Source of the DNA: Bacteroidales bacterium
GTDB lineage: Bacteria > Bacteroidota > Bacteroidia > Bacteroidales > F082
DNA length: 64,000 nt
Direction of reading: 5' to 3'
Assembly (NCBI GenBank): GCA_024400455.1
Contig: JAKSMU010000010.1
Location: 9,209 to 73,208 of the forward strand
Shown: one piece after another, positions 377 through 29,770 of the stretch
How positions within the stretch are numbered: position 1 is the stretch's first letter
Layout of the letters: every line of letters begins with the position of its first letter
Notes under the pieces: generated by a model
What the model was told of the DNA's origin: nothing
Seen by the model: the letters and a program-made list of their open reading frames with translations, nothing else
The model's database searches: none
Translations under genes and position numbers: made by a program

Positions 377-1675
377 TTAATCCAATACATTCCATTGCCA
401 ATGGGCATGCCCGACAAGATAGTTCGCCTCGACATCTAATTTCAAATAGAGGTCAGGCTCTTTGGATTCCCAGCTGTTGTTCGTTGCATAATAGAGAAAG
501 TCCCAGTGGACACCGCCTATACCCTTCACGCCAACTGTGACGAGTCCTTCCAAAGGATCAAGTGAAGCGCCGACATAGAGGCCAAGATCCAAAGACATAG
601 GCGCGAAAACATCATAGTCGCAATTCACTCCGTTCACATTGGAGGTAATATTGGCATCGACCAAGGTCATATCAAGAGCGCCCTGGATGCCGAAATCAAA
701 ATGCAATGGAGGGAAATTTGGACACGGGAAGTGTGCGCCAAGCGTAAATTCCGAACCGAGATGGACGTTGGCATTGAAGAAGAAAACCGGCAAGCCGTTG
801 CAGCAGTCTTTCTTCGTTCCAATATTCGCTGTGAAATACGGATTGATATTGAATTCTACCTTCGCTTTCTTCAGCAGGCTGCTTTTCTGAATCTTATCGG
901 TAACAGATTTGCATCGGTCAGCAATTTTTCCTGCATTCTCGATGGCATCCATCGCTTTCAAGATATTTCTATCGATTTTTGCACCAGCAATATCCAACTG
1001 CCACGAATTTTCGATGACCGTAATGGTGGCATAGTTATCACGAAGCCTTTGGCCACGGAATGTGAAATAGACTTTCTCGTGGCTTTCACCGCCCATTCCT
1101 GCCGAGGCGATGCGGCTGTCTTCGTCGATATCCACATCACTTTCATACCCAGGAGGATCTGTCTTAAAGATAAAGCTATCCTTTTCAACTACCTGGCCAT
1201 CTGCCCAGCATTCCACTCCCGGTTTCAAAGAATAATAAATACGAATACGATTCGTCAGATGGACAGACAGAATCTCACACTGATTTCCATAAGACGACGA
1301 CCTAACCACTGCAATATAAATGTACAAATTTGCCATGGCGTATTGGTCTTCTGGCATGCCTAAAACTTCAATAGAAATATGAGGGCTCGCCTTTGAACGG
1401 TCATCAAACGTGACTTTACACTCTACGACATTAAAATTAGTTGTCGAATAGGCCTGCAACCACCAATCATACTGAGCTTCGCTGTTACCATTGACATCAC
1501 CATCCACATCAAACTCAGCACGGAAGGTAGTGCCACTGGTAAAGCTGTCGAAGTATGACCTTGCAGTTCCAGAAAATCCGTTATACTTCAATTTCTGGGC
1601 AAAAACCGTAGAGCAACTTGCTACCAATAGCAAAATTGCCAACCCAAAGAACCGTTTAAACATATTATTATTCAT
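377..1675 (-). CDS. Lipoprotein or secreted protein of unknown function (432 aa), immediately downstream of the giant gene
   Basis: ATG at 1675. The N-terminus MNNNMFKRFFGLAILLLVASCSTVFAQ has a lipobox-like LVAS-C. The protein is Cys-rich with a beta-strand-like C-terminal half. Only 14 nt separate it from the giant gene stop. I recognise no family motif. Confidence 0.75.
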   Translation of the reverse strand: MNNNMFKRFFGLAILLLVASCSTVFAQKLKYNGFSGTARSYFDSFTSGTTFRAEFDVDGDVNGNSEAQYDWWLQAYSTTNFNVVECKVTFDDRSKASPHISIEVLGMPEDQYAMANLYIYIAVVRSSSYGNQCEILSVHLTNRIRIYYSLKPGVECWADGQVVEKDSFIFKTDPPGYESDVDIDEDSRIASAGMGGESHEKVYFTFRGQRLRDNYATITVIENSWQLDIAGAKIDRNILKAMDAIENAGKIADRCKSVTDKIQKSSLLKKAKVEFNINPYFTANIGTKKDCCNGLPVFFFNANVHLGSEFTLGAHFPCPNFPPLHFDFGIQGALDMTLVDANITSNVNGVNCDYDVFAPMSLDLGLYVGASLDPLEGLVTVGVKGIGGVHWDFLYYATNNSWESKEPDLYLKLDVEANYLVGHAHWQWNVLD

Positions 1676-1689
1676 CTTATATTATCCGT

Positions 1690-4600
1690 TTAATGTAACA
1701 TCAAATTCTTAATATACTCGTGTGCGTCGATTTCATCGTTGACATCGATGCTGAACAGCATCTCTGCGTTGGTGTAGCAGTAGATGGTGATGGTGTGGCG
1801 CACACCCGGACGCAACACGCCGTCAGGCTCATCCTCGAACTGGGTCGGAATCTCCAGTTCGGTGCGGTGGATGTTGAGTTCACCACGGCGCAAGCCGATC
1901 CACGATTCGCCCAAGCTGCGCAGCACGATGCGCGGATTGACGATATCGGTGTTACCGATGTTGCCATATTCGAGCGTCAGGCAGCAGTAGCGGTTGGCGC
2001 GCAAGCCGACCGGAATGATGAGGTTGGTCGACAGGTTCTCAGGCTCGCCTTCCACGACAGTGAAGCCGTTGTGGAGGTAAGCGGCGCCAGCGCAGTAATT
2101 GATGGCACGCACCGTATAAGTGCCCAATGCAGCGCCCTTCAGGTCGAAGGTGACAAACACCTCGTTGAAGTTGACATACTGCAAGGCCTCGGCCTGGATG
2201 GTATCGGTAGCGTTGTAGAGAATCACTTCCATGTCGTGACGGAACTTCGAGCCGATGAGCTTCACGGTCACCTTGCCGGTGTTACCGCCACGGTTCGGGC
2301 TGATGCTGCGAATCTCGAACGGCAGGATGTCGGCCTCGATGGTCATCTGCTGGTTTGGATGTGCAGGACTGTAGCCGAACACGCTCACGCCATAATAGCC
2401 TGGTTCGGTGCGCGGAATGTAAAGCTCGCTGTTCGAGGTCATCTGACCATCGGTGGAGATGTCGTAGTCGAGGTTAGTACCGACACCGTCGTGCAACACA
2501 TAGATGTTGTTGACGGCACCCACCAGCGAATCGGTCGAGGTGACATACACGCGGACGGTCTCGCTGATGTTGCTGCCCACCACAAGTTTGTAGTCCTTGT
2601 ATTGGAAGTTATCCATAGTGAACGGCACCTGCTCATTGAACGGCAATATAGGCAGTTCAACTCTCACTCTACCGAGCGAAGCCGTGCGGTTGTTGTTTTC
2701 TTCGATTTCGTAGAAAGTATTGCGGGCATCGGTATAAACGATGATGTAATACTCGCCTTCCTGTACGCCCGAGATGTTGGCTTCGAGCTGGTGCTGTTCG
2801 CTCACGTTCTCCATCAGAGAGAGGTCGTAGGCAATATTGCCCAGCAAGCGGTCGTCGGCATCAAAGATGGTGTCGGTGGAGAGATAGACCACATCGGAGC
2901 AACCCACACCGGTAAGGGTGTTAGGACCGAGGTTCTTCACCTTCCATGTAATCGTCATGCTGTTGCCAGCCGTGATTTGCGACGGGAAGTCGATGTCGGT
3001 GACGATGAGGTCGCCAGGAGCGTTCAGGTCGACCACCACAGGCAACATGCCAAGGTTGTTGTCGCAATTCATTTCATAGAGTGCCTCGCTGTGGTTGGCG
3101 TTGACATAGAAGGCATAGTTGCCCGTCTCAGGCACCGGAACGATGAAGGTAGCAGTGTCGTAATAATATTCACCCGGATTGAGGACATCCTCACGCGTTT
3201 CAGTGGCAATCACCTGACCATGGTCGTAGGTATTGCGCGAAAGGACGACGCGGTCGGCGTAAGTACCGTAGGTAGGTCCGTCGCCCACATTGGTGACCTT
3301 ATAGCGCACCTCGATTGGCTGGCCGCAGGCTGGGAATTCAGTTAGGAGTTCCAAGTCGCTGACTTCAAGGTCAGGCACCGGAATGCTCGTAATGTTGATA
3401 GCCAATGCCTTCACATTGTTTTCAGCATTCGAATCAGGATTAGCGGCGGCATAGTCGGTGACGACCAAGAGGTACTGGTCACCGAGATAACCGTAAGGTA
3501 TCGTGACGTTGAAGCCATCATTGTACTGGCCTCCACCCGACACGACATCGTTTTTGGTCTTCTTGGCGAGCATCAGGTCGTTGGCATCCAAAGTGGCATC
3601 ATCAGAGAGATAGATTCTATCCTCATAGTTGCTCACTGTGGGCCGTGAACCGAAGTTATGGACCGTATAGGAATACGACACAGTTTCAGACCACTCAACA
3701 TCGGTTGCTCCGGTGAACGAAGTCACGGCAAGGTCGAGGCTGTATTCCTGGACCGGGAACGACACGCTCTGATACGTATTGTTGTATTCGCCGACATACT
3801 CGAACAGGTTGTCGTTCACATCGCTGACGATGTAAATGTAGTAGTTGTCGGTGGCCAAGGTATTAGGCAGCATCACGGTACGGGTGGCGCTGTAGGTATC
3901 GCCGATGGCCAACGGGCCTTGCTTGCTGATGGAGGTGAGACGTTCGGCATTCTCGACACTAAACTGAGGATAGTTCGACACATAGATGGCATCGGTCCAA
4001 GTTTCGTCGGCTGCGATGGCACGAATGCCTTGGTTGGTAGCCGTATAGGAGATGTCCATCGACATGCCAGCCGTTCCACTGCCAGGCTGTGTGGCATCGG
4101 TGATAAGCAGGTCAGGATATGGCGAGAGGGTGACACTCAACAGGTCGGAAACGATGTAGTTGGTGTACACATTGTCGCCTTCGCAGATGCCGTCGCCATC
4201 GTTGACCACAATATAGATGTAGTATGGACCTTGCGCCTCAATAGGCAGCGTCACATTCTGCACGATGGTCTCGGTGCTGTCGGCAGCCAGTGCAATCGGA
4301 TAGGTGATGATGTCGAGCGGCTGAGCCGTGATGAAGTTGAGTTCAGGCGACAAGCCGAGATAAACACCCAGTTCAATATCACCGGTATAACCGATGCTAC
4401 CCTTGTTGGTGATATCATAAACCACATCGAACGAATCGCCAGAATTGAGCGTGGTAGGCGCCAGCAAGTCGTGGGCCATGAAGTCAGGATTCTTCAACAG
4501 ATAGTGTTCATCCAAGCGGTTGTTGTTGGTGAAGTCCTTATCGTTTTGCGGCGTGGCTTGCAGTTTCACCGAGTTCACCTCATAGAAGTTACATGGGATA

Positions 4601-25600: not shown

Positions 25601-28600
25601 ATATCAATAGTGGTTGCGTCGTAAGGCGTCTCGTAGGCGCCCACATCCACCATGCCTTGTTGGAGACGCGCATTTCCTGCAATATCCGTATCGGGCAGCG
25701 TGACGGTTTCCGGCAAATCGGTGGTACCTCTATTGACCAAAGCGGAACCTTCCAAAATGTTCCAATTGCCACCCGAGTATTCAGGTCCGGCACCAGCCGT
25801 CGGAGCGATGAACATCGGACTTGATGCATTCCCAGTGTTTAAGCCTGAGAGCAACAGGTTGTTCATGCCGCTGCAGCCACCTTCAACAGCGCAGCAGTTC
25901 GCCTCACCGTCCGAATTGTACACATTGAGCGAAGCGCCATTCTGGCGGTTACCCCAAATAACACTGTTGGACGCAATGGCATTATAGTCCAAATACAGAC
26001 CTGCGCCACCATATTCATCGCTATTCGAGGAAACATTGTTCACAATATCGCAGTTGATGGCAATGCTATTATATCCCAAATACAAGCCGCTGCCGCTGCC
26101 ATATTGTCCATCAATACCGTTATTAGCGATGATAGTGTTATATAATATCGCATATTCGGAAGTGTAAACGCCACCGCCATAACTAGCCTCATTACCTTCA
26201 ACAAGGCAATTCCTGACAACACAATGGTTGTCGGATTCGGCATCGATATACATGCCACCGCCCCTTCTTTCAGAGCTTCGGCCCGTAATCGAGTTGTTCT
26301 TGATTTGGCAATCGGTGATCTCAGCAACATCGGCACAAACACCTGCTCCATATCCAGAAGCCGAATAACCCTGAAGCTGGATTTCGTTGTCGTGAACCTT
26401 GCATCGAAGCATCGAAGCACCTTCCGACAAAATCACACCGGCTGCTTGAGCCTCGCCATCAGTGATGATGACATTGCCATAAATCTCGCAGTCTTCTAAG
26501 TTACTATTCACGATACCAGCACCAGCACCAACAGCATAATAACTTGAGCGATTACCTCTGTCGCCCTTAGCGGATTGTCTCATGGCCATGCCCAAGGTTT
26601 CCACTTGGTTCTTCGAACCCAGGAGCTCTCGCGAACCTAAATCGAGAGGCTCGTCGCCCGAACCTTCAGGGTCGATGGCTTCCAAAGTATTGTTCCGGAT
26701 AATACAGTTGCGCAATGTAGTGTTACCTATCAAAAACACACCGCCACACATAGTGTTCTCGCCTTGCTCATAACCATTCTGGATGACGAAACCATCCCAC
26801 GAAGCAGACCTGCTTTCCGAAAATTCTCTCAACTGACATAGTACAGGCTGCAAATGCTGACCATCGAGGATGGTGGCATTGTTGACCAAATCACGCTGGC
26901 TCATATCGTAGCCAAACGGCTCATTGCCCGCAAGGCTGCCATACACATTAACCCCTTCCTGGACATAGAACGCATACTGATTTGGGAGACCGTTTCCATA
27001 ATAGGTTCCGCCTTTCACCCAAACCGTCGCAGGCGTGCGCATCCGTGAAGCATAATACACCGCACTGTCAAGCGTCGGGCAAGCATTCTGCCACGAGGAG
27101 CCGTCCATAGTCCCTGCGCCAGTTGGAGTGACATAAAGGATGTTGTTGGCATCAGGCACAATCTCGTTGGTCGTGAATGAACACACAGGGCTACTAGTCA
27201 CACCCGTCGTGTTACGTTCCTTCACCTGCCAATAATAGGTGGTACGAGCGGCCAAGTCCATCGAGAACGAATTGGACAATTCAGAAGTCCAGTCCACGAT
27301 AACATTCGTGGGTGGATTTGTAGTGCCGCAAAGCACCTGATATTCCTTAGTGAAATCACCGAAAGTCCAGTTGAAAGTATAGTTGCCGCCACCAGCGTAT
27401 GTAATCGCGCCATTGACAGGGTTCATGTTTTCAACAGCGTATGGCAAAGGCCAGTCTTCCTTGTCGAAATTCACTGTGAATTCCTGATTCGATGAAGTAG
27501 CCACGACATAATAAGTGCCTGAGGTGAGTCGCAAAGCCTCGTCGCCATTCGAAGGCAACTCGATATCATCCACACGGAAGACATCATCACCAGAAGATGC
27601 GCTGACATCCTTATAATACACCCATTGAAACGAATGAAGGCCAGCTGAAATTGGGCACTCAAATTTTTGCCATGAAGAATAATTTGTTCCCGACACGCTC
27701 AGCATTTGAACCCCGTCCAAATTGAAATACCCTTCGTCATAGTTCGATTCCGAACTGATAAAATACCAAAAACTGAACGTGCCTTCCATTGCAACATTAA
27801 AGTCAAATGAAGCGACAGAAGAACTGTTATGCTGACCAAAATTCGTGGAATGCATAGAGTACGAACCATCATGTGCCGCCGTGTTGTCAACAACCCAAGG
27901 ATAGTATTCCGTTTTCCAGTCGAAGACATCAAGTGTTCCTTCTTCAAAGCCAGTGGCTGATGGCATGACTGACGGCATGGCATTTTCTGTTTTAGGTCCA
28001 CCAAGACCTTCAAAACCATCGTGATAGAAAGTCAATTTGCCATCGCCATGCGTCTCAATGGAAGATTCAAGGAGCACATCGGTAGAAAGATTCAGTTTAA
28101 AGACTGCATCCACGCCAGTTTGCGGAGCATCCTCGATATTGTAGTTCAAATACAGGTTTGAACTTTCGTCATAACTTTGAGTAAAAGGAAAATTCACAAT
28201 CTCTTGAGCAACTTCCCAAACATCAGGGGTGACAGGTGTATAAGCCGTCGCCGACAGCGGAATCGTGGTTTCGCCATCCTCACCATAATGCAACACCAAA
28301 CCGCCTTCTTCGAGGCCGCTGCCCGAACCCGTATTCACCATAAACGGGCGCGATTCCAAATAATCCAAGGCAAACGGAGTTTCAAGGCCTGTCACAGAGA
28401 AGTAACTGTTGGTCAACTCAATAGAATTAACCGTTGTGGCCTCACCCGAATTGCCAAGCAACACCGTCACAGGTTCCATCCAGCAGCCCGACGGGCGATT
28501 ACCCAAATAAGGTGCCTCAGGCATTGCGACAAGCGATGTATTGGGCTTTGTTTCAAACTCAAACACGCTCCAGTCGCTTTCGTTGCCACCTGCATATACT

Positions 28601-29709
28601 GCTTTTGCAGCAACTTCATAATGCTTTCCAGGCATCAAACCCGTCAAGGTGTATGGACTGCTGCCGGTAATTTCAGTCGGTTCATCGTCACCGTCAGCGA
28701 TATACATCACGGTGAAAGTGGCATCGGACGAGCCCGCCCATTCCACTACTGCCTGTGTCGAAGTGATATCATACGCATACACGCAAGGTGCATCATAAGA
28801 ACTTCCTGCATAGCCAAACTTGATGTTGTCTATACTACTTGAAAGGTTTGAAGTATAACCACTTGCACTCTCTGGAGAAAAATTATATGTGTCGTTATAA
28901 TAATACGTTCCCCTATTCAAAGAAACAGCATGCGTATAGAATTTTTTGCTGTTACTCGTATAAGAGCCCGTATTATCATCAACCACAACCACCAGATTAT
29001 CAACACCATTATACGAAAACAAAGTATTAAAATCAATCTTAAACCAATTGCTTTCGCCACTGTTATTGAAAGTCAACGAACCGCCATACACTTTCGTCAG
29101 ACTGGAAGCAGGAACATAATCCGTGCCACTTGAAAAATAGCTCTTTGAAGTATGGCCAAGATAAATGTCAATATTACGCGTTATAGAAGTACTATAGAAA
29201 TACTGAAATGCTATGGAATTGAGCGTTTTAGCGCCACCCATCTCCTCAGCAAGGAGAATCTGCTGTGTGTAGCTGTAATTGTACCAGGTATAGGTTGGGA
29301 AATATTCTCCTGATGTACTGCCCGTGCCGCTTCCAATGACCACTTCATTTGCCGAACTGCTTGTCGTGAAATAGTATGTATCGGAATAAGAGCTGTAGGC
29401 ATTCTCGCCGCACACCGATTTCACACGCACTTTATATTGAGTGGCCATTTGAAGACCGCCAATCATGACATGTTCATCACTCACATTCAGCACATTGCTC
29501 CATCCGCTAGCCGATGTTTGGTCGTATTCAACAACGTACGCGTCAGCCGTTCCTTCCCAGGTTAGCAAAGCACTGCATTGCATCACTTGTTCCGTAACCA
29601 AATTTTCCGGCGCTTCGCAAGTGGTACTCCGTGAGCCTGCTCCAAACATGGATTCAACAGCAAAAAGCGAGAGGGCAATAGTCAATAAATATCTCAATAT
29701 CATCTTCAT
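1690..29709 (-). CDS. Giant secreted multidomain surface protein (9,339 aa). Order of parts: signal peptide, Fn3/jelly-roll head, 15 beta-helix modules, CARDB-like array, PPC-like domain, IPT/TIG-like domain, unassigned C-terminal tail.
   Basis: A single stop-free frame runs 1690..29751. The ATG at 29709 gives MKMILRYLLTIALSLFAVESMFGAGS, a Sec signal peptide; the 14 codons upstream of it look non-native. Recurrent protein motifs run along the whole length, so it is coding throughout. Confidence 0.9.
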   Translation of the reverse strand: MKMILRYLLTIALSLFAVESMFGAGSRSTTCEAPENLVTEQVMQCSALLTWEGTADAYVVEYDQTSASGWSNVLNVSDEHVMIGGLQMATQYKVRVKSVCGENAYSSYSDTYYFTTSSSANEVVIGSGTGSTSGEYFPTYTWYNYSYTQQILLAEEMGGAKTLNSIAFQYFYSTSITRNIDIYLGHTSKSYFSSGTDYVPASSLTKVYGGSLTFNNSGESNWFKIDFNTLFSYNGVDNLVVVVDDNTGSYTSNSKKFYTHAVSLNRGTYYYNDTYNFSPESASGYTSNLSSSIDNIKFGYAGSSYDAPCVYAYDITSTQAVVEWAGSSDATFTVMYIADGDDEPTEITGSSPYTLTGLMPGKHYEVAAKAVYAGGNESDWSVFEFETKPNTSLVAMPEAPYLGNRPSGCWMEPVTVLLGNSGEATTVNSIELTNSYFSVTGLETPFALDYLESRPFMVNTGSGSGLEEGGLVLHYGEDGETTIPLSATAYTPVTPDVWEVAQEIVNFPFTQSYDESSNLYLNYNIEDAPQTGVDAVFKLNLSTDVLLESSIETHGDGKLTFYHDGFEGLGGPKTENAMPSVMPSATGFEEGTLDVFDWKTEYYPWVVDNTAAHDGSYSMHSTNFGQHNSSSVASFDFNVAMEGTFSFWYFISSESNYDEGYFNLDGVQMLSVSGTNYSSWQKFECPISAGLHSFQWVYYKDVSASSGDDVFRVDDIELPSNGDEALRLTSGTYYVVATSSNQEFTVNFDKEDWPLPYAVENMNPVNGAITYAGGGNYTFNWTFGDFTKEYQVLCGTTNPPTNVIVDWTSELSNSFSMDLAARTTYYWQVKERNTTGVTSSPVCSFTTNEIVPDANNILYVTPTGAGTMDGSSWQNACPTLDSAVYYASRMRTPATVWVKGGTYYGNGLPNQYAFYVQEGVNVYGSLAGNEPFGYDMSQRDLVNNATILDGQHLQPVLCQLREFSESRSASWDGFVIQNGYEQGENTMCGGVFLIGNTTLRNCIIRNNTLEAIDPEGSGDEPLDLGSRELLGSKNQVETLGMAMRQSAKGDRGNRSSYYAVGAGAGIVNSNLEDCEIYGNVIITDGEAQAAGVILSEGASMLRCKVHDNEIQLQGYSASGYGAGVCADVAEITDCQIKNNSITGRSSERRGGGMYIDAESDNHCVVRNCLVEGNEASYGGGVYTSEYAILYNTIIANNGIDGQYGSGSGLYLGYNSIAINCDIVNNVSSNSDEYGGAGLYLDYNAIASNSVIWGNRQNGASLNVYNSDGEANCCAVEGGCSGMNNLLLSGLNTGNASSPMFIAPTAGAGPEYSGGNWNILEGSALVNRGTTDLPETVTLPDTDIAGNARLQQGMVDVGAYETPYDATTIDITPDENNIIYVTPTGAGSKNGSSWDNAADDLNAVVMAASQMNSVPSVWVAQGTYHGDGIQGNSAFVMVEEVDVYGGFAGNESADYDLASRDFALHASVLDGQNAQRVLCQPDNFRIVTVWDGFTIERGRLTSDPYGAGALLNDNGRLRNCIIRNDSIVIEGNVNPEPEMAAFRGNAERMANTKGDRGDRSITFSAGAGVYMYGATLENCEVYGNYISVAGEAEGAGVYADNGSIKQCVIHDNRINTADGLAKGAGLYSSYNVSIYDCNIHHNTAEGYSVYGAGVYYYPGSSDYSASCIVNSVIADNIGNGNYLYGGGLYVYNYAGKVINCNIVNNILTGTEIYGAGISGNWDNRNYLYNTVVWGNKANGEFSSIAGCKFVANYCAVEGGYEGTRIVNLNSLNDGDDENALYPKFVDPANGDWTIQEGSALINKGVYEIENFTFPTTDLAGNDRLQNGKIDIGAYESPYESNDLTPDEHGIFYVTVTGAGTRNGSSWENASGNLNAVLDEASFMTVKPMVWVAAGTYTGDGNAVNDAFTMVEGVNVYGGFIGNEPYDYDLRLRDLENNQTILDGQNVQRVLNQRIGFSEATATLWDGFVIENGRHAEKGAGACIGSYATLRHCIVRNDTVVSGSNMGYGGGIFCDSGSTVDSCQVYGNYATNGGGIFVQSEATLNCCDVHDNSAQYGGGFSANASGYLYKTITNCSFTSNEAENYGGGVYAYYSRLTNCVIANNKAGQRAGGVYSNGYNYFVGCLINNNTSVQSGGGLYASGSTYMTNCDVVNNLITDGGYTGAGVYPGTSTVQLRNTVVWGNKVISTASNILGSYSPTLNYCAVEGGYSGNRNIALESENAGSNELLNYVRFANPTEGAGADFTDGDWTLLEFSALINKGTESDIYGTLPERDLAGNDRIRRGKIDVGSYESPCMGSEIGPDEHNIIYVTTTGAGIRNGSSWADAAAGLTNVLTEAADMTVKPVIWVAKGTYVGDSISGHNAFTMVKGVNVYGGFAGNEAYNYDLSQRDFENNATILDGQNVQRVLYQSEAYSEDMATVWDGFTLEKGRLNSSEYGAGAYIRKNGTLRNCVIRHDTIVYSGNTYGAGVFMNYGTLDGCEVYGNYAWLNTSGYYSYSRGGGIYANYGTIRNCNIHDNKSASYTNGYSYGGGLFAINAVEVTGCVFKGNDSYYGGGIFKNNTSYYTNVTNCIFEGNQAQYGSAIDADGYLYITNCLVNNNYSRSYSAIYSGYNTYITNSTIVNNKAANSYGVGVYPTNSNCYVTNSIVWGNRYGTTPSNIYNTSNVMVSYSAIEGGFTGLGNINLSASNVGTGTSPCFASPTEGAGIDYSGGDWTLTADSPMLDFGIYPVQNVTIPASDLAGNDRVQQNGIDMGAYESSFGSQFNIAPDEHNIIYVTTTGTGNGSSWANATNDLNSALMVACRISPRPVVWMAAGTYAGNGVSGSNAFILQDGVSVYGGFVGNEAWNYDLSQRNLTDNLTVLDGQDVQRVLYQEGDFSQVTYVDGLVIERGRLNQGYGAGAYIRNKVTLQNCVIRNNNIVGISSNNGTSYGAGVYVTKGSLSHCEIYENDITWGGSGTWYVTCNGAGAYLDNASAQYCDIHDNNNVDSYYGCGGGVYLYYSSISNSTVRNNTAKEYGGGVYAYGASQSNPAMITYCEIVGNESIDYDGGGVYASCYTKLTNCTISNNIAGSGTNSSSKRGGGVFASSYTYMTNCLVSNNTSKHAGGGVYFNSVSYLTNCDIVNNLVTNASSFGGGLYVSSSDVSLKNCVVWGNECSGAISNVTCASGYLPAITYSAIQGGWSGTGNVVLGAANTGDFTSPYFTSPTEGAGAAYSDGDWTVQSGSALVNKGTTQNLSVTLPDVDLAGNSRVQQGIIDLGCYESEYTQGSGLQPDGHNIIYVTVEGAGQKDGSSWDNACDNLNYAVSEASGMSPIPMIWVKEGRYFGDGAVNGSAFIMQPGVNVYGGFEGTEAYTENWQQRQYGQHVTILDGQNVQRVLMQAVSFANDKSSVWNGFTIENGHLTADSYGAGAYLMDNGALKNCIIRNDTILAQAASYGAGVFMQKGRLENCEIYGNYIGHIGSSSYYTYGGGVYAKGGNMLDCFIHDNGAESRSYSYSYGGGVYCPSNYQTVMERCVVTGNYTNGYGGGFYSYGYSSSSPHRFVNCRFENNNAYQGGGAYAYYNSELVGCNVANNTASNCAGGAYVGNYSKLISSNVVNNLVTGTNSNSGAGIYVSAYYTYLTNSIVWGNRKGEAFDQYYISGTPTATFCAIQGGYDGTGNIALDDENEGGGLNPCFANPSEGVGAEFTGGDWSLTMASACINQGTTSGLTLPETDLAGNVRVQQGAIDVGAFESPYNAVILSPDEHNILYVTPNGAGAQDGSSWANATPYLQLAANRAGTFAQKATVWVAQGTYQGNGVENGNAFTIPSGIAVYGSFVGDEAYNYDLSQRDFVNHASILDGQNVQRVLYQRTDYTAQNAALWDGFTLTNGAGSLYGAGAYLRANAELRNCIISGNVSSGNNYGGGVYLYGSSDGDAKLTNCKIIDNEGYHGGGVYSNYYATLTNCLIAGNTARYYGGGVYVGSNTKLIHCGIYDNAANNNGGGIYFNYTSENVVRNSVVWGNVKGESVSSIYASEHVDVSYSAVEGGYSGVGNVALASENLGNFASPCFVAPEDGDWNLTSSSILINKGGAFENMPEKDLAGNARVQQGTADMGPYESPYESAFDIVADANNIIYVKLEGMGNGSSWTDATGDLQMAVNFAATMNPVATVWVAKGTYYGSQSQDAFTMVPGVNVYGGFAGTESADFNLNDRDFITNMTILDGDEARRVLCQNSNFTSSTSATWDGFTIRNGYCQGYGAGVYMRSYSHLRNCVVTNNVVNGYYEGAGIYVAGASGIHNTLTNCEITNNTTSGSGAGVCGQYLTLTNCKIKDNISNGNYGGGAYLNYSKLINCELTGNRASQAGGVYLYYSDAINTTIANNTATNNYGGLYNYSSGSGYTLANLIIWGNKKGETPNQYYNSGGTFTYCAIQGYTGGGTGNINLEADNDGDDVTKYYVRFLAPEAGIYQLQNESSVVGMGNNSVTGLPEKDLAGRDRIMDGTIEPGAYEQYCTQLEIKDLNLEYGVLYNFYGSYITEPGTYTHQWSYAADCDSLVVAHVTMNSSIWYVTTTGAGTKDGSSWANASDNLNTLLNNISQQSGYSRKQVWVAGGTYHGATSGTADFYYVGGVEVHGGFAGNETYISERDPEAHPTILSGSTNRALLAKSSSYPCTEDSRTLWEGITFEGGKQMTVDVYLTLENCTSNTPTIANGRLLRCDFSGFSDNGSKILVRLNEGAILDSCLVHNNSCNYALVRAEDATVRYTLFYNNTCTRNYSGGGEGKNYGAVLNAINNVLIDHCDFVNNRTDYTYTVNADLFLNMEDDDVNHLRQPKHALISLRNSVMQNSIVWGNEQAIYTHDFIAKDLASEINYCAIENAMYNGVGNIVLGNSGNFVPDFVNPTPNVGHLISIDDVDWSLGLNSICHKQGTEGNDLGAIASTEASHISVTPTDGVIYVAQDGEGDGSSWANATSDLQYAVAHANTTTPAAQVWVKEGSYTGDGNGNHSAFNVVAGVEVYGGFAGNETSLDQRDPAAHPTFLDGMASQRVLYQNEPFAEEDAAVWDGFVIRNGYMNEGSFYDYNGAILVHPVSNDMSYNLNHLNGAGAAILANTTLRNISFENNRIVRDPEHNSGISNAMKGTTLSVFGGTLDHVVIAYDTTEYVSTNTSMVNSYLYAVNATMEACDFNHNIGKIALYGGSVNHTNFTYNQVRVELPEEDNLSEAQLYADFTVMRHCRLAFNNAVALNKRKNGSQYANTFHDCQIDHNNALAIVGHSLGNNDQFINCNINNNKSNNRGSNVYPISGGVFHNTVVWGNRNYSDLCAHFEASRLAENCSFNNCAVEHGLEGYEDEVVALAADNTGTSQAYEYPCFLAPVNGDYTLTENSALIDAGDNSVVAVEKDFIGNDRIMDETVEIGAYEYKCVLYREYNDVTMNTHYPFYGEWLTESGQYVHRWAINETCDSVVVLNLSFKHIIYVTEEGGGLRNGTSWENAFGSLKDATEYAGTHPSDLNQIWVAEGLYRGDGTSVNAFRLFPNTQMYGGLTGTELADYDLSQRDIANHETILDGDYIQRVIYQVEDCTADNPLIIDGFTIKNGFSRASVSNGTALSLKRYATIRNCKITENYTNSGVEAIYMYNDDFESCDRRIIYNNFINCELTNNQGGYVVVSDHCVFTNCKISGNNGFGIYVVTYTRVEDCQLIGNGGRAIRLKAAAHKFTDPFWGTEKYSLDYLDMTNTKVTNNKGGIHYEKTCKGHGEGRITSCLFANNSAMSGEDTRGGAIFGNEHEIDITCSTFVNNTAKDDGGALYGTGYKIVNTILSGNKASGKANQLSNHYYDWVECEDGAFAKVSIETSDITYSAIEGGYPGEGNIGLNNTDLKANLDGSYRPNGNSPCVNNGTVSGVDVPEYDMNGQSRVLQGRIDIGAYESDFTGRTLIQPDANNIIYVSSAPCGNNDGSSWDNATSHFQMSLNFALCYNPRPQIWVKKGTYGDDNAQFWSNLAMMPGVNVYGGLNGDEPANYDLSQRDLNNNLSVLTGNSVKRVLEQFGDFTGDEVVTWDGFHIKSGYAREGYVRNIKYLSESAVEGFFKDYMNGGGVLLRKGGNLSHCEIYDNVAFKGGGIYRGQVSENNAPTYITNSKLRHNYAIDEGGAIFMTRSSGIFGGGESPIDTIANCEISGNNADRLGALHTVRAAIIGTSIIKNTTDLYAFDTINSGHQYNHLVNCVMWGNDSRNYAFQTEGRNNTYDYCAIQGGAPAENTGSNIINLEIDNTGDNPELNYPFFLDDEEEIYRPTENSAFVNQGDNENVFGDEDLAFKPRVKDDIVDMGAYEESCLNYEHKYVIANRQYNFYGRILTESGKYEHQWTPAGSDCDSLVSLELEIRCIWYVKQGGAGLQNGSSWENATGDLNWAISQASACDTVGTKQIWVAQGLYQGNGTSVQAFTLKPNIEILGGFEGNELENVDFDSRDFVNHASILDGSHCQRVLGNYGNESSFGPMKRATVDGFTIQNGYTTKEGGGVYAKNYITLNNLVVKNNQGGSGAGIYVDNRCEVSDCDIFSNTALHDGGGAWVKSSTLTYCEIYRNLCDNVESGSKLGGGIYGNNATINNCLIANNSVLTTGAKGGGMYIANSQVASQLLNCTMVNNYSYDLAGGVYSENSSSNNEFINCVLWGNKTDLNTQQIAVSASNVPIYLRYCAVQGGAAGIGNIKLTAGNNTNDLFSPKFVNPSENVGANYGGGDWRFQDNSILANHGERLTYTITKDLDDETRVKNSRIDIGAYESNYTHDFAVRPDEHNIIYVDAHNNSGDYSGDSWTNAIPDLQLAINFAGDNDNRPKIWIAGGTYTGNGWPYVDAFVALNGIDLYGGFAGNEAYDYDLDDRDLEANATILDGQNIQRTLQQAHSTYFKYKQIEELHSAIYDGLTLKNGFVYKNNGGVVMMQKGNLNRCIIENGEARDGVAGGLFFNNYDLIVDNTIIRNCKTTASNTGSGYNGGGYNGGGYNGTHIIFHNCLLANNSASGNGGAGTGGTHYNSTIVNNYASVDGGGLYIYNKVYNSVLWGNKIGNNLPCQLRTSDPSYNQNTFGNGDVLYSAIEGGFAGEGNITLNVNNSGNSDININYPMFVNPSIAAGAGNGYVSDDDDWSLEDGSVLVNHGKLSYVSGTYDLGHNNRVQREKADMGAYESPYDFDYEIEPDANNIIYVTQFGAGLKNGSSWEDATPYLQFAMERATLMSPRPQIWMAAGIYTGSGVPQYPAFNLPDNISLYGGFAGNEPASYDLSLRDFDLNITRLDGQNLQQIMRRDYTTSNNRDILNGITFQNGRSNREGGAAYLKNCDIDYCQFLNNTMVWEGDYPTGHGGGALNSSNCHIYHSTFMNNYSNGDGGAIKASSDVINWCLIKNNTADKSGGGINGSPEIYNTEISYNHAEKGGGLYGAPRMKNSTVVKNTADIYNGSANNGGGMYLGRMSGVFGETLYDYWSNNIVWGNRTGALVSNVRGIIPASGTISYTAFESDETFPAGTGNIVLQSDNDGTNPSFNYVRFADPDNGDFSLQESSMCINVGNNATAAPGDFDLADNERIQDAIIDMGAYEMTPVNCHVPTGLIVPDNEITFTTANVYWTPADEESEWMVYYMQVDEITPHILVADTNFIVLDGLEPNLEYFVKVRSMCSSTEMSGYTLPVYFNTACDPESIVWNNYLDEEGLLPVREQALQSNEEVLFSWDYIEGADYYDLYLWRTDYGNGLEIPDFPVRYGIRNNYATVDLGASVYQGYGAYEHCFGWGCDPEPPLYLHQYDTTGVAYYAWYVVAHQDCAVIQSDTMTFTTALPDLHVSALDCSYAQTGQVMTVEWTVKNDGVGPTPTGAEGTWNDYIVLSYPHNWTHQSFTQENPESFLMATVPNLTALNPGESYTNSTNIFVPDDMYGTVFLFVLSNWVPYSDMHLDYSSYGGVFPDPYLPPYIPHDPGDPEGYMTGTCAAESFREIVECDNFFYKKIEVDIPPYPDLIGTNVIPPYEGVAGDTITVSWMIVNQGRAGFENRPVTDIIYMTTDTVYSSQATQVATYMDTIPLMAAGDTIVRTMSFVTDERAIDTFNFFVRIDATNTVYESLFEGNNMSPVSVHSTILLPAPPPDLTVTNLTLGMDTISPYEQFPISYRVKNIGYVAAKPLDDPNQGGGISDSCGIVPPWRGKQWSDFFYLSDQPELNTSFATSIGSISNDTILYLPTDFQTIDTMIMRWAECHFTVPDTLSANASHADSVRYYEAVAAVPGLIADFYDEQHYFYKNGDTIPHNRYINSYMVTGKARTPHTTQEGKYYFYVWTDKNDAIFEYQHEDNNIAVDSIYVVQPDLTVENFWINDTRDSLCYVLRNIGSGKMVDERIALTANFNNAQVGRASLTRINLNPGDSLVGSLAIDIPCNFYEVNSVKLQATPQNDKDFTNNNRLDEHYLLKNPDFMAHDLLAPTTLNSGDSFDVVYDITNKGSIGYTGDIELGVYLGLSPELNFITAQPLDIITYPIALAADSTETIVQNVTLPIEAQGPYYIYIVVNDGDGICEGDNVYTNYIVSDLLSVTLSPYPDLLITDATQPGSGTAGMSMDISYTATNQGIRAIAADETWTDAIYVSNYPQFSVENAERLTSISKQGPLAIGDTYSATRTVMLPNTLATDNYYIYIVSDVNDNLFEYVGEYNNTYQSVSFPVQEYSLDLAVTSFTGATDVEWSETVSYSYTVHNFGSRPTVSNYEDRIYLSDDATLDANDLMLAKKTKNDVVSGGGQYNDGFNVTIPYGYLGDQYLLVVTDYAAANPDSNAENNVKALAINITSIPVPDLEVSDLELLTEFPACGQPIEVRYKVTNVGDGPTYGTYADRVVLSRNTYDHGQVIATETREDVLNPGEYYYDTATFIVPVPETGNYAFYVNANHSEALYEMNCDNNLGMLPVVVDLNAPGDLIVTDIDFPSQITAGNSMTITWKVKNLGPNTLTGVGCSDVVYLSTDTIFDADDRLLGNIAYDLSLMENVSEQHQLEANISGVQEGEYYIIVYTDARNTFYEIEENNNRTASLGRVRVELPILPFNEQVPFTMDNFQYKDYKLVVGSNISETVRVYVTSTDSLVGAVNNIYVLHDGVGTNLDYDISTDGQMTSNSELYIPRTEPGYYGVSVFGYSPAHPNQQMTIEADILPFEIRSISPNRGGNTGKVTVKLIGSKFRHDMEVILYNATDTIQAEALQYVNFNEVFVTFDLKGAALGTYTVRAINYCAGAAYLHNGFTVVEGEPENLSTNLIIPVGLRANRYCCLTLEYGNIGNTDIVNPRIVLRSLGESWIGLRRGELNIHRTELEIPTQFEDEPDGVLRPGVRHTITIYCYTNAEMLFSIDVNDEIDAHEYIKNLMLH
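1693..2050 (-). other. C-terminal tail of the giant protein (about 118 aa), no recognisable sorting domain
   Basis: Sequence ENLSTNLIIPVGLRANRYCCLTLEYGNIGNTDIV...TITIYCYTNAEMLFSIDVNDEIDAHEYIKNLMLH. It lacks the (Y/F)PNP...G(I/V)Y...K(I/V) pattern seen in the three T9SS CTDs elsewhere in this window. Confidence 0.5.
2050..2330 (-). other. IPT/TIG-like Ig domain in the giant protein
   Basis: FEIRSISPNRGGNTGKVTVKLIGSKFRHDMEVILYNATDTIQAEALQYVNFNEVFVTFDLKGAALGTYTVRAINYCAGAAYLHNGFTVVE resembles the IPT/TIG pattern (I.SI.P..G...G...VTI.G..F ... V). Judged by eye only. Confidence 0.4.
2330..2650 (-). other. PPC-like (bacterial pre-peptidase C-terminal-like) beta-sandwich in the giant protein
   Basis: FTMDNFQYKDYKLVVGSNISETVRVYVTSTDSLVGAVNNIYVLHDGVGTNLDYDISTDGQMTSNSELYIPRTEPGYYGVSVFGY follows the general PPC pattern (Y.F.v......v.l.......D.DLyl ....... 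G.Y.i.V.gy). Tentative. Confidence 0.3.
2650..6360 (-). repeat. Array of about 9 CARDB-like Ig-fold domains (about 110-130 aa each) in the giant protein
   Basis: Each domain starts with a recurring motif: (P)DL.V......G....V.(Y/W).V.N.G...(T/A). Examples: LPDLHVSALDCSYAQTGQVMTVEWTVKNDGVGPT (about 6357), YPDLIGTNV...VSWMIVNQGRAGF (about 5838), PPDLTVTNL...YRVKNIGYVAA (about 5450), QPDLTVENF...YVLRNIGSGKM (about 4805), NPDFMAHDL...YDITNKGSIGY (about 4490), YPDLLITDA...YTATNQGIRAI (about 4120), SLDLAVTSF...YTVHNFGSRPT (about 3740), VPDLEVSDL...YKVTNVGDGPT (about 3375), PGDLIVTDI...WKVKNLGPNT (about 3015). Many also contain a downstream E.(N/D)E.NN motif. Confidence 0.6.
6360..7050 (-). other. 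Two Fn3-like domains linking the beta-helix array to the CARDB-like array
   Basis: CHVPTGLIVPDNEITFTTANVYWTPADEESEWMVYYMQVD...LEPNLEYFVKVRSMCSS...YFNTAC is a classic Fn3 pattern. It is followed by LFSWDYIEGADYYDLYLWRTD...DTMTFTT. Confidence 0.5.
10660..10815 (-). repeat. Two-Cys mini-domain, copy 3 (precedes beta-helix module 13)
   Basis: CLNYEHKYVIANRQYNFYGRILTESGKYEHQWTPAGSDCDSLVSLELEIRCIWYV. Shared pattern: C...........Y.FYG..(L/I)TE.G.Y.H.W.....CDS(L/V)V.L.(L/V). Confidence 0.6.
13380..13541 (-). repeat. Two-Cys mini-domain, copy 2 (precedes beta-helix module 11)
   Basis: CVLYREYNDVTMNTHYPFYGEWLTESGQYVHRWAINETCDSVVVLNLSFKHIIYV. Confidence 0.6.
16095..16262 (-). repeat. Two-Cys mini-domain, copy 1 (precedes beta-helix module 9)
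   Basis: CTQLEIKDLNLEYGVLYNFYGSYITEPGTYTHQWSYAADCDSLVVAHVTMNSSIWYV. Confidence 0.6.
27160..29619 (-). other. N-terminal head region of the giant protein: Fn3, a ~190-aa unassigned domain, Fn3, an Ig-like segment, a MAM/jelly-roll-like domain, Fn3-like
   Basis: First Fn3 (about 29362-29619): CEAPENLVTEQ...ALLTWEG...YKVRVKSVCG...YYFTT. The unassigned domain contains EYFPTYTWYNYSYTQQILLAEEMGG. Second Fn3 (about 28543-28785): CVYAYDITSTQAVVEWAG...HYEVAAKAVY...FEFETK. The jelly-roll-like block is GFEEGTLDVFDWKTE...GSYSMHS...TFSFWYFISSE..YDEGYFNLDG...FRVDDIELP. Confidence 0.45.
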
Positions 29710-29762
29710 AGTATAATACTTTTCACAAATGCAATTACTAACTGCACACAATTTTGAAGATG

Positions 29763-29770
29763 CAAAAATA
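29763..29770 (-). promoter_or_regulatory. Candidate Bacteroidota -7 promoter box (TATTTTTG) for the giant gene
   Basis: The plus strand reads CAAAAATA, which is TAnnTTTG on the minus strand, 53 nt upstream of the ATG at 29709. Confidence 0.4.

What the first reader, a model, noticed from the sequence alone, without database searches (positions are those of the whole stretch)
1690..29709. Uninterrupted 28,020-nt ORF encoding a 9,339-aa protein
One reading frame has no stop codon over 28 kb, and recognisable protein motifs recur along its entire length, so it is not a chance open frame. At 9.3k residues it is in the extreme tail of bacterial protein sizes. The gene takes up about 44 percent of this window. 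The domain order is: signal peptide, Fn3/jelly-roll head, 15 beta-helix modules, about 9 Ig-like CARDB-type domains, PPC-like, IPT/TIG-like. This suggests a long stalk-plus-array surface fibre, adhesin or glycan-binding/processing scaffold, but I cannot assign a function.
Basis: seen in the sequence. Interest (0 to 1): 0.8.

Follow-up and report, generated by a model that had tools for sequence, protein, structure and literature searches.

The report
Giant hypervariable Bacteroidales surface-fibre gene
The 28-kb open frame is a real, selected gene for a 1-megadalton secreted fibre protein of an uncultured gut-type Bacteroidales bacterium. It sits in a conserved gene cassette and occurs in the same species as at least three deeply different versions.

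Summary
On the minus strand, ATG 29709 to stop 1690-1692 gives 9,339 codons (1,013 kDa).

It is not an assembly artefact. The 15 beta-helix modules are only 25-50% identical to each other. Independent assemblies from other samples carry the same gene at 9,332-9,337 aa, with dN/dS of 0.08-0.21. Orthologues of 6,746 and 6,363+ aa are collinear with it over about 5,900-6,700 aligned positions.

- signal peptide
- fn3/jelly-roll/MAM-like head
- 15 right-handed beta-helix 'choice-of-anchor Q' modules
- fn3 plus an unknown domain
- 9 CARDB domains
- a three-domain tail that includes an IPT/TIG fold

New findings:
1. The gene sits in a conserved cassette: TPR histidine kinase, LuxR regulator, giant, ~430-aa protein, TSP3-repeat protein, DUF7619 stalk protein.
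2. The giant has no T9SS sorting domain, but the DUF7619 protein does. In distant relatives the CARDB array, tail, DUF7619 and sorting domain are fused in one protein.
3. Within one species the flanks are 96-100% identical, yet the giant has three allele classes (8.5, 9.3 and 9.6 kaa) with only 34-40% identity in the first 3,260 residues.

The most likely function is a non-catalytic, T9SS-associated adhesive surface fibre with a variable tip. The function is inferred, not shown.

The parts
1690..29709 (-). Complete giant CDS: 9,339 codons plus TAA, 1,012.8 kDa, pI 4.39
   Evidence: dN/dS 0.08-0.21 against independent alleles
29641..29709 (-). N-terminal Sec-type signal peptide (aa 1-23), with no lipobox cysteine
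   Evidence: Read from the sequence. The other allele classes also start with signal-peptide-like sequences. No predictor was run.
27169..29640 (-). Head, the presumed distal tip (aa 24-847): fn3 33-104; jelly-roll-like 110-305; fn3 313-382; Ig-like 395-490; conserved tip domain 494-585; MAM-like 587-720; fn3-like 740-847
   Evidence: Pfam. The relatives of the head are Bacteroidales fn3, Cleaved_Adhesin or MAM surface proteins. Only aa 494-847 is shared with orthologue P0078.
7054..27168 (-). Fifteen right-handed parallel beta-helix modules (aa 848-7552), each 363-521 aa. Each has a conserved ~130-aa N-cap (NIIYVTxxGAGxxNGSSWxNA ... GNE ... QRD ... LDGQ), a variable number of GGG(V/I)Y/NCxIxxN coils, and a C-terminal choice-of-anchor Q motif (WGN ... 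DxGAYE).
   Evidence: Modules 5-15 are 1:1 orthologous to those of P0078 at 46-68% identity.
16105..16260 (-). ~50-aa two-cysteine insert after module 8 (aa 4484-4535). Similar inserts follow module 10 (window 13390-13539) and module 12 (window 10666-10815).
   Evidence: Alignment columns 690-731; sequences shown
6805..7029 (-). fn3 domain after the last module (aa 7561-7635)
   Evidence: Pfam fn3, E 4.9e-5, 23.9 bits, just below the 25-bit curated cut-off
6355..6762 (-). Unassigned domain (aa 7650-7785), among the most conserved parts between orthologues (61-70%)
   Evidence: No family hit; conservation
2683..6348 (-). Array of 9 CARDB-type Ig-like domains (aa 7788-9009). The third has a ~100-aa insert and the fourth is divergent.
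   Evidence: Pfam CARDB, 7.2e-40; self-HMM boundaries
1693..2682 (-). C-terminal tail (aa 9010-9339): D1 jelly-roll/MAM-like sandwich, D2 IPT/TIG (aa ~9132-9219), D3 beta-sandwich. There is no T9SS sorting domain. This is the region best conserved between allele classes A and C (86-98%).
   Evidence: The tail lies at the extreme C-terminus of most family members.
29763..29770 (-). TATTTTTG, which fits the Bacteroidota -7 promoter motif TAnnTTTG, 54 nt upstream of the ATG. It is conserved in all three allele classes.
   Evidence: Sequence and alignment. The motif consensus is from my own knowledge. No transcription start was tested.
29825..29843 (-). Perfect inverted repeat ATCAACA-N5-TGTTGAT upstream of the promoter, invariant across allele classes. 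It is a candidate binding site for the adjacent LuxR-type regulator.
   Evidence: Alignment. The function is inferred.
29902..30561 (-). LuxR/NarL-type response regulator, syntenic with the one upstream of orthologue P0078. An identical protein is found on at least 23 contigs.
30621..32561 (-). TPR-containing sensor histidine kinase. It resembles FimS but scores below that model's cut-off. Syntenic in L087.
377..1675 (-). 432-aa cassette partner of unknown fold, with signal peptide and lipobox-like VASC. It is a fast-evolving family found directly downstream of every chassis protein examined.
1..349 (-). N-terminus of the TSP_3-repeat cassette partner, cut off by the window edge
   Evidence: 38.6-40% identity to the N-termini of L001_488 and L087_477

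Best explanation
The ORF is an intact, expressed-type gene of an uncultured Bacteroidales bacterium. It encodes a 1-MDa acidic protein that is exported and forms a long, non-catalytic cell-surface fibre.

Proposed layout, from the far end inwards:
- a variable N-terminal head (fn3, jelly-roll and MAM-like domains), which binds ligands
- a rigid stalk of 15 stacked beta-helix modules
- a more flexible extender of fn3 and nine CARDB Ig-like domains
- a conserved three-domain C-terminal tail, which holds the fibre to the cell

By my arithmetic the fibre would be roughly 150-200 nm long if fully extended.

The giant has a Sec signal peptide but no T9SS sorting domain. I propose that its tail docks onto the products of the three conserved downstream genes: the ~430-aa protein, the Ca-binding TSP3-repeat protein, and a DUF7619 isopeptide-type stalk protein. 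The last of these carries a T9SS type A sorting domain, so export and anchoring would depend on the T9SS through a partner. The adjacent TPR histidine kinase and LuxR regulator probably control expression.

Shown: the gene is real and under purifying selection; the architecture; the cassette and its synteny; the fusion of the two halves in relatives; the three allele classes between near-identical flanks.

Inferred: surface location, orientation, docking, adhesion, regulation, and the cause of the hypervariability. The cause would be diversifying or frequency-dependent selection on an exposed structure, for example by phages, host immunity or ligand range.
For: A real gene under selection.

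Fibre-type architecture.

No sign of a catalytic role:
- The only Pfam hits to the modules are the generic Beta_helix and NosD models.
- The columns invariant across the 15 modules are mostly G, N, W, Y, A, L and S, plus E83 and R92 in the N-cap.
- Fold matches are generic, with TM 0.4-0.5 to GH136, PL9, PL6, tailspikes and Rhombotarget A.

Conserved cassette: in five independent contexts (L001, L082/083, L084/085, L086, L087) and in the same species (L088/089).

Sorting domain on the partners only: DUF7619 partner TIGR04183 24.5 bits against a cut-off of 23; the next gene 27.4 bits; the giant's tail has no hit at E<=0.05; C-terminal sequences.

Rosetta-stone fusion: in P0022, P0028, P0052, P0054, P0058, P0060, P0063, P0066, P0068, P0072, P0073, P0045, P0032 and P0116 the CARDB array and tail are followed, in the same chain, by the ~290-aa core of the DUF7619 partner (32-47% identity, E down to 1e-147). 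According to the precomputed Pfam list, many of these also have Por_Secre_tail.

DUF7619 is a predicted intramolecular-isopeptide stalk domain of fibrillar adhesins (PMC12617251).

The tail is the part conserved between alleles, and the head is the most variable: 98% at aa 9240-9339, 53-74% further upstream, and 34-40% with a different domain make-up in the first 3,260 aa.

The organism has a T9SS: several neighbouring genes carry Por_Secre_tail.
Against: - There is no experimental datum of any kind. Expression, location and binding are all untested.
- No published precedent that I know of shows T9SS cargo exported or anchored through a sorting domain supplied in trans.
- The DUF7619 partner itself lies outside the window, which ends inside the TSP3 gene. 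Its presence here rests on near-identical contigs (L088/L089).
- The beta-helix fold is also the fold of many polysaccharide lyases and hydrolases. Each module keeps its own identity between orthologues (46-68%), which could reflect individual activities or specificities.
- I could not map conserved residues onto the model, because no coordinates were returned.
- The signal peptide was judged by eye.
Confidence: 0.55

Rival explanations
1. The giant is a multi-catalytic polysaccharide-degrading scaffold. Some or all of the 15 beta-helix modules would be lyases, hydrolases or esterases acting on plant or host glycans, and the CARDB array would serve as a spacer.
For: The best fold matches of module 3 include lacto-N-biosidase GH136, pectate lyase PL9, PL6 chondroitinase/alginate lyases and phage depolymerase tailspikes. 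Related MAGs come from herbivore guts. Each module is individually conserved between orthologues.
Against: TM-scores are only 0.3-0.5, which is generic fold similarity. No catalytic Pfam or NCBIfam family is matched, only Beta_helix, NosD and choice_anch_Q. The module profile finds no enzyme in the PDB by sequence. No acidic or basic residue in the coil region is conserved across the modules. There is no SusC/SusD or other glycan-utilisation gene nearby. The partners are stalk- or adhesin-type proteins.
Confidence: 0.15
2. The giant is itself a direct T9SS substrate. Its last tail domain (aa 9226-9323) would be an unrecognised kind of C-terminal sorting domain, and the downstream genes would be accessory or unrelated.
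For: The tail sits at the extreme C-terminus of nearly all family members. D3 is a small beta-sandwich, as T9SS sorting domains are. It is the part most conserved between alleles.
Against: There is no hit to the type A model at E<=0.05 in NCBIfam or E<=1 in Pfam, and no type B model appeared either. No T9SS sorting-domain structure is among the top 50 fold matches. In the fused relatives the tail is internal and a canonical type A domain follows further downstream, so the tail is not the terminal signal there.
Confidence: 0.15
3. The ORF is an assembly artefact or a decaying pseudogene. It would be a chimera or a repeat expansion/collapse, and its true state would be shorter or interrupted.
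For: The gene is highly repetitive at the domain level. GC3 steps sharply at the module 8/9 boundary. In some public assemblies relatives are split or truncated (L001, L086, MBR6848179/80).
Against: Paralogous modules are 25-50% identical, and DNA repeats are at most 164 nt at no more than 85% identity. Three other assemblies give 9,332-9,337 aa. Collinear orthologues span the GC3 step, and the orthologue's gene has a step at the homologous place. dN/dS is 0.08-0.21.
Confidence: 0.03
4. The giant is a SprB-like gliding-motility adhesin, propelled along the cell surface by the T9SS/gliding machinery.
For: The protein is giant and repetitive, from Bacteroidota, and has a T9SS link. The DUF7619 partner in one relative carries SprB repeats (L084).
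Against: The giant has no SprB repeat hit, no type B sorting domain, and no SprF/PorP-like neighbour. No gliding genes are in the window. Whether the organism is motile is unknown.
Confidence: 0.07

Closest known systems
Uncharacterised giant proteins of Bacteroidales MAGs, annotated 'right-handed parallel beta-helix repeat-containing protein' (e.g. MBQ2906448.1 = P0077, 6,363 aa; MBR6848179.1/MBR6848180.1; JGI P0078, 6,746 aa)
   Same: True orthologues. They are collinear at 48-53% identity over about 5,900-6,700 aligned positions. Modules correspond 1:1, and the CARDB array and tail are the same. For P0078 (L087) the flanking HK, regulator, ~440-aa, TSP3 and DUF7619 genes are also the same.
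   Different: The window's protein has four extra modules and about 490 extra head residues. No member of this family has been studied experimentally, as far as the held literature shows.
~2,000-aa Bacteroidota 'CARDB chassis' proteins (P0004-P0010 and others)
   Same: They share the fn3/domain X, CARDB array and tail (30-37% identity over 60-92% of the C-terminal 1,790 aa) and the same downstream cassette.
   Different: Their N-terminal payloads are unrelated (Flg_new_2, cohesin-like and others) and short. They do not have 15 beta-helix modules.
SprB of Flavobacterium johnsoniae (giant T9SS-secreted surface filament; from my own knowledge)
   Same: It is a giant repetitive Bacteroidota cell-surface filament that depends on the T9SS and on an adjacent accessory gene.
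   Different: SprB carries its own type B sorting domain and SprB repeats, and it serves gliding. Here there is no sorting domain on the giant and no SprB repeats, and the sorting domain is on a separate partner protein.
Giant fibrillar adhesins with a repetitive stalk and a ligand-binding tip (RTX adhesins such as MpIBP, LapA and SiiE; isopeptide-stalk adhesins; PMC12617251)
   Same: The logic is the same: anchor, long repetitive extender, binding tip. The protein is acidic, and the cassette contains Ca-binding repeats and an isopeptide-type stalk domain.
   Different: The secretion route differs (T1SS or sortase there), the polarity differs, and the stalk unit differs (beta-helix modules instead of only Ig-like repeats). 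No RTX or LPXTG features were hit.
Beta-helical passenger adhesins (type V autotransporters, chlamydial Pmp proteins, Ag43; from my own knowledge and papers listed)
   Same: They have a right-handed beta-helix with GGA/GGG-type coil motifs that is used as an adhesive rod.
   Different: The giant has no C-terminal beta-barrel translocator. It has fifteen separate capped helices rather than one, in a different phylum with a different secretion system.
Giant proteins of Omnitrophota and other phyla (West-Roberts et al., bioRxiv 10.1101/2023.11.21.568195)
   Same: These are very large secreted multi-domain proteins with long beta-helical regions, found through metagenomes.
   Different: Those are 30-85 kaa, with antiparallel beta-helices, SecA-like and peptidoglycan-degrading domains, and they are linked to predation. 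None of these features is present here.

Membership tests
Choice-of-anchor Q / parallel beta-helix module family (NF041518, PF13229) | Score above the curated cut-off for the family models | tested here: met
   choice_anch_Q scores 40.9-112 bits against a cut-off of 25 in all four chunks. Beta_helix scores 50-144 bits against 25.9.
Choice-of-anchor Q / parallel beta-helix module family (NF041518, PF13229) | Right-handed parallel beta-helix fold | tested here: met
   AlphaFold model of module 3: pLDDT 88.5, pTM 0.89. All top Foldseek hits are right-handed beta-helices.
CARDB (PF07705) | Score above the gathering threshold, in tandem copies | tested here: met
   135.7 bits against 22.7, with 5 stretches. 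A self-HMM finds 8 domains and there is one more divergent copy.
Orthologous giant family (P0077/P0078 clusters) | Collinear full-length similarity and shared gene neighbourhood | tested here: met
   52.6% identity over 6,658 columns and 47.6% over 5,927 columns. The HK, RR, giant, ~440-aa, TSP3 and DUF7619 genes are syntenic.
T9SS cargo, type A | C-terminal sorting domain (TIGR04183 / PF18962) | tested here: not met
   The giant has no hit, while neighbouring genes and the DUF7619 partner do pass.
T9SS cargo, type B (SprB type) | Type B sorting domain and an adjacent PorP/SprF-like gene; SprB repeats for the SprB family | tested here: not met
   No such model appears among the Pfam or NCBIfam hits of the giant or of the 432-aa neighbour.
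Beta-helix polysaccharide lyases and hydrolases (PL1/3/6/9, GH28, GH136, CE8) | Match to a catalytic family model | tested here: not met
   Only generic Beta_helix and NosD hits. The profile search of the PDB finds no enzyme. No CAZy-specific library was available.
Beta-helix polysaccharide lyases and hydrolases (PL1/3/6/9, GH28, GH136, CE8) | Conserved catalytic Asp/Glu/Lys/Arg and Ca-binding residues in the groove | tested here: inconclusive
   No charged residue is invariant in the coil region across the 15 modules. E83 and R92 are invariant in the N-cap. Residues could not be mapped onto coordinates.
Type V autotransporter / Pmp adhesins | C-terminal beta-barrel translocator domain | tested here: not met
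   No such hit. The C-terminus is three soluble beta-sandwiches.
RTX / T1SS giant adhesins | RTX nonapeptide repeats and a C-terminal T1SS signal, with adjacent ABC/MFP genes | tested here: not met
   No RTX hit in the giant, and no transporter genes in the window.
Fibrillar adhesin (functional class) | Demonstrated surface exposure and ligand binding | not testable with these tools
   Only the architecture and the context could be assessed.

The most novel reading that the evidence does not exclude
The locus could be a split T9SS fibre system. A 1-MDa fibre protein without a sorting domain would be exported and/or anchored through a sorting domain supplied in trans by a conserved DUF7619 stalk partner, with the ~430-aa and TSP3 proteins as adaptors. 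The fibre gene itself would be a swappable 25-29-kb single-gene cassette, exchanged between strains by recombination in the invariant promoter and in the invariant last ~100-350 codons. This would give one species several antigenically and functionally distinct fibres on a common base.
Probability: 0.3. Interest if true: 0.75.

Novelty: new variant of a known kind. Interest (0 to 1): 0.55.

Why it matters
Giant surface proteins are usually lost or fragmented in metagenome assemblies. Here a 9.3-kaa gene is verified as intact and under selection in several samples.

It matters for three reasons:
1. It defines a widespread but unstudied Bacteroidota 'chassis': a CARDB array plus tail, with three conserved partner genes. 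Very different payloads are mounted on it, up to 15 beta-helix modules.
2. The gene-fusion evidence makes a concrete idea testable. That idea is that a T9SS sorting domain may act for a separate, much larger protein.
3. Three alleles at 34-40% identity, lying between flanks that are 96-100% identical, make this one of the largest single-gene hypervariable loci one could study. It is a natural system for asking how phages, hosts or substrates shape the exposed surface of gut Bacteroidales.

If it proves to be just another large adhesin, the practical value is still a corrected annotation and a warning. The protein libraries searched here did not return the >8,000-aa relatives.

Tried and rejected
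- Homologue searches with the full protein and with 5,000 aa failed: length limit and time-out. I then used sub-regions.
- A scan of the GTDB representative genomes with the head found no relative. A scan with dnaX gave at best 75% identity over the N-terminal part, to a roe-deer colon Bacteroidales MAG. The species is therefore not among those representatives and could not be named.
- Sequence searches of the PDB gave only designed fn3 scaffolds for the head. They gave nothing significant for the tail, for the 432-aa partner, or for the tail and module profiles.
- Assembly chimera at the GC3 / GC-skew step near window position 16,200: rejected. P0078 and P0077 align collinearly across it, and the P0078 gene shows a step at the homologous place.
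- Invertible (phase-variable) promoter: a 15-nt, 87% inverted repeat flanks the promoter (29728-29742 / 29838-29852). Its downstream arm is not conserved in allele classes B and C. All six assemblies have the same orientation, and no recombinase gene is adjacent. I regard it as a chance match.
- Lipoprotein anchoring through the 432-aa partner: its lipobox cysteine is absent in the L087 homologue, so this is not a conserved feature.
- A search of the paper library for the sample accessions found nothing, so the habitat is unverified.
- 'Longest in its family' cannot be claimed. Allele class B is 9,623 aa. The two protein libraries did not return the near-identical 9,332-aa protein. They may lack very long proteins.
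Full report
OBSERVATION

The ORF list shows a single open frame of 9,353 codons on the minus strand, 1690..29751. The first ATG, at 29709, is followed by MKMILRYLLTIALSLFAVESMFG, a typical Sec signal sequence. The product is 1,012.8 kDa with pI 4.39, and is rich in G, N, S, T and Y. With the gene's own base composition, the chance of such a stop-free run is about 1e-199.

IS IT REAL AND CONTIGUOUS?

Four results argue against it.
- The 15 modules are old duplicates, 25-50% identical in protein.
- The longest internal DNA repeats are no more than 164 nt at 60-85% identity, and the only tandem repeat is 43 nt.
- The 432-aa downstream protein and the upstream response regulator occur, 98% identical and identical respectively, on many contigs from other sequencing runs. 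On three of these the neighbouring gene is called at 9,332, 9,332 and 9,337 aa. Their outer 10 kb are 93-100% (5' end) and 97.3% (3' end) identical to the window in DNA, and the frame stays open.
- dN/dS between the window and these alleles is 0.21, 0.16 and 0.08, which indicates purifying selection on this frame.

In more distant organisms, P0078 (6,746 aa; 13 cluster members of 6,743-6,755 aa or split) aligns in one collinear block with residues 2763-9322, at 52.6% identity over 6,658 columns. P0077 (6,363 aa, N-terminally cut; cluster members up to 7,173 aa) aligns with 3540-9339 at 47.6%.

The middle ~8 kb of the near-identical alleles could not be read. The matching gene lengths and the collinear orthologues cover it.

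ANATOMY (aa; window coordinates are in 'parts')

- Signal peptide: 1-23.
- Head, 24-847: fn3 (33-104), a jelly-roll-like domain (110-305), fn3 (313-382), an Ig-like stretch, a conserved tip domain (494-585), a MAM-like domain (587-720, E 1.3e-4) and an fn3-like domain.
- Head relatives: the jelly-roll-like domain is shared with the N-termini of ~1,300-aa Bacteroidales fn3/Cleaved_Adhesin/MAM surface proteins. The MAM-like domain is shared with a gingipain-family protein.
- Fifteen modules, 848-7552. Each has a strongly conserved ~130-aa N-cap, a variable number of coils and a C-terminal choice-of-anchor Q motif (NF041518).
- Module fold: AlphaFold of module 3 gives a right-handed parallel beta-helix (pLDDT 88.5, pTM 0.89). 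Foldseek finds only generic pectate-lyase-fold similarity, with TM 0.3-0.5 to GH136, PL9, Rhombotarget A, PL6 and tailspikes. A profile of the modules finds no solved relative by sequence.
- Three ~50-aa two-cysteine inserts follow modules 8, 10 and 12.
- After module 15: an fn3 (7561-7635), an unassigned and well-conserved domain (7650-7785), and nine CARDB-type domains (7788-9009).
- Tail, 9010-9339: predicted with pLDDT 82 as three beta-sandwiches. The middle one is an IPT/TIG fold, matching EBF3 at rmsd 3.2-3.9 A.

'PPC-like' remains unconfirmed. An fn3, an unknown domain and a last tail domain were missed.

NOT A T9SS CARGO BY ITSELF

Several neighbouring genes carry Por_Secre_tail, so the organism has a T9SS. 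These are 32558-34513, 44435-46711 and 46751-49831. The giant has no hit to any sorting-domain model. No sorting-domain structure appears among the top fold matches of its tail.

A CONSERVED CASSETTE

The C-terminal 1,790 aa define a family of ~2,000-aa Bacteroidota proteins with varied N-terminal payloads. In every context examined (L001, L082/083, L084/085, L086, L087, and L088/089, which are the same species as the window) the chassis gene is followed by the same genes:
- a ~390-444-aa protein of unknown fold
- a ~430-490-aa protein with 6-9 thrombospondin type 3 repeats
- a DUF7619 protein of 878-1,977 aa

In the window, the 432-aa gene (377-1675) is the first partner; it is 24% identical over its full length to L001_421 (E 7e-22). 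The truncated ORF 349->1 is the N-terminus of the TSP3 partner, at 38.6-40% identity. The window ends before the DUF7619 gene.

In the near-identical contigs, the DUF7619 protein (1,689 aa) and the next protein (754 aa) pass the T9SS type A model, at 24.5 and 27.4 bits against a cut-off of 23. Their homologues end in typical ...GTYMVKITMGTGEVLTGKIIVK tails. DUF7619 is a predicted intramolecular-isopeptide domain of fibrillar-adhesin stalks (PMC12617251).

Upstream, the TPR histidine kinase and the LuxR-type regulator are syntenic with those next to P0078.

ROSETTA-STONE LINK

In at least 14 more distant relatives the CARDB array and the tail are not C-terminal. The same polypeptide continues with the ~290-aa core of the DUF7619 partner (32-47% identity, E from 1e-26 to 1e-147). 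According to the precomputed Pfam list, many continue further with Por_Secre_tail. One of them, P0116 (6,120 aa), also has beta-helix modules. The two genes of this locus are thus one protein elsewhere. This is the best available evidence that they act together and that the assembly depends on the T9SS.

HYPERVARIABILITY

This was not part of the original finding.
- Six contigs carry the identical regulator. All are 96-100% identical to the window over the upstream flank they share with it: the full 10 kb in five contigs, about 5 kb in L093.
- In the giant's first 10 kb they fall into two groups, 93-100% (L094, L095) or 52-59% (L090-L093). The break lies at the start codon.
- At protein level there are three classes:
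  - A: the window, 9,332-9,339 aa
  - B: L092/L093/P0076, 9,623 aa, about 40% identical to A
  - C: L090/L091, 8,506-8,507 aa, about 34% identical to A
- The classes have different head domains.
- At the 3' end, L088 (8,513 aa, probably class C) and L089 (class A) are ~100% identical in DNA through the three partner genes, but only 64-73% identical inside the giant. Identity to the window rises from 53-74% to 86% (aa 8990-9239) and 98% (aa 9240-9339).
- The promoter region is conserved across all classes. It includes TATTTTTG and a perfect ATCAACA-N5-TGTTGAT inverted repeat.

The locus therefore behaves as a single-gene replaceable cassette, bounded by an invariant promoter and an invariant C-terminal tail. 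This pattern supports the polarity I propose: the tail is the cell-proximal, partner-binding end, and the head is the exposed, variable end.

MECHANISM

I commit to a non-catalytic, T9SS-associated surface fibre, with confidence 0.55. The steps would be:
- Sec export
- folding into a rod of beta-helix modules, plus an Ig-like extender
- docking of the tail to the cassette partners, whose DUF7619 stalk protein carries the sorting signal
- adhesion through the variable head, and possibly along the modules
- control by the adjacent two-component system

Rivals: an enzyme scaffold (0.15), a cryptic sorting domain in tail D3 (0.15), a SprB-like motility adhesin (0.07) and an artefact or pseudogene (0.03).

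Orthologous modules are 46-68% identical, against 25-50% for paralogous ones. Each module therefore keeps its own identity. This fits either position-specific structural roles or individual binding specificities, and it is the main reason I do not dismiss the enzyme or lectin readings.

NOVELTY

Proteins of this family are already in public databases under a generic name, and module arrays of 4-7.8 kaa are common among the 174,630 profile hits. The giant ORF as such is therefore a member of an existing but unstudied family, not a new kind. What seems new is the combination of three things:
- a fibre protein without a sorting domain, next to a partner that has one, with fusion evidence linking them
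- a conserved four-gene chassis cassette with a two-component system
- three deeply divergent alleles within one species

I found no paper on any of these.

I rate it 'new variant of a known kind', with interest 0.55.

Noticed in passing
window ~16,200 (aa ~4500 of the giant; module 8/9 boundary): GC3 of the giant steps from ~0.50 (C3 0.32, T3 0.37) in the N-terminal half to 0.63-0.75 in the C-terminal half. This also shows as a change in GC and GC skew near 16,000. The P0078 gene has a milder step at the homologous place. It is not a chimera. It may mark a younger or imported N-terminal half, or a codon-usage gradient.
   Followed up: partly
window 29825-29843 (minus strand), upstream of the giant's promoter: A perfect inverted repeat, ATCAACA-N5-TGTTGAT, is invariant in all three allele classes although the coding sequence right after it diverges to 52-59%. 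It is a candidate operator for the adjacent LuxR-type regulator.
   Followed up: partly
window 29728-29742 and 29838-29852: A 15-nt, 87% inverted repeat brackets the promoter, like a small invertible switch. The downstream arm is not conserved in allele classes B and C, all assemblies have one orientation, and no recombinase is nearby. It is probably a chance match.
   Followed up: yes
window 32558-34513 (minus strand): This T9SS-sorted protein with six Flg_new_2 (Listeria-Bacteroides) repeats overlaps the histidine kinase start by 4 nt. Its length differs between strains of the same species (578, 602, 651 and 675 aa), which suggests variation in repeat copy number.
   Followed up: no
window 44435-49831 (minus strand): Two further T9SS cargo genes lie side by side: a C10 (streptopain-like) cysteine peptidase with its Spi inhibitor prodomain, and a 1,026-aa protein of unknown function. 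The region is rich in secreted surface proteins.
   Followed up: no
window 8809-8851 (aa ~6953-6967, module 14): This is the only near-perfect tandem repeat in the gene: 2.9 copies of 15 nt encoding GYNGG-GYNGG-GYNG. It is a possible slippage hot spot inside a coil.
   Followed up: no
window 16105-16260, 13390-13539, 10666-10815; also L001 8796-14729 and L087 33067-38325 (C-terminal parts): The ~50-aa two-cysteine inserts after modules 8, 10 and 12 have the motif ...YxFYGxxxTExGxYxHxW....CDSxVxLxL. A similar G(T)Y...CDS..(L/W).(L/V)TV motif occurs just before the sorting domain of the DUF7619 partners. This may be a shared small domain.
   Followed up: no
L086 4741-17500 (GCA_017577265.1): A relative is annotated as two overlapping ORFs of 1,760 and 2,499 aa. 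They are probably one ~4,250-aa gene broken by a frameshift, with only a few beta-helix modules. Module number varies widely in the family.
   Followed up: partly
L088 versus L089, locus positions ~9,000-10,000: Two samples share partner genes that are 100% identical, but their giant alleles are 64-73% identical. The identity switches within the last few hundred codons of the giant, which is a sharp recombination break-point.
   Followed up: yes
protein libraries used: Neither search returned the near-identical 9,332-aa protein that exists on Logan contigs, and no listed hit exceeded 7,792 aa. Very long proteins may be missing from these libraries, so length rankings drawn from them are unsafe.
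   Followed up: no
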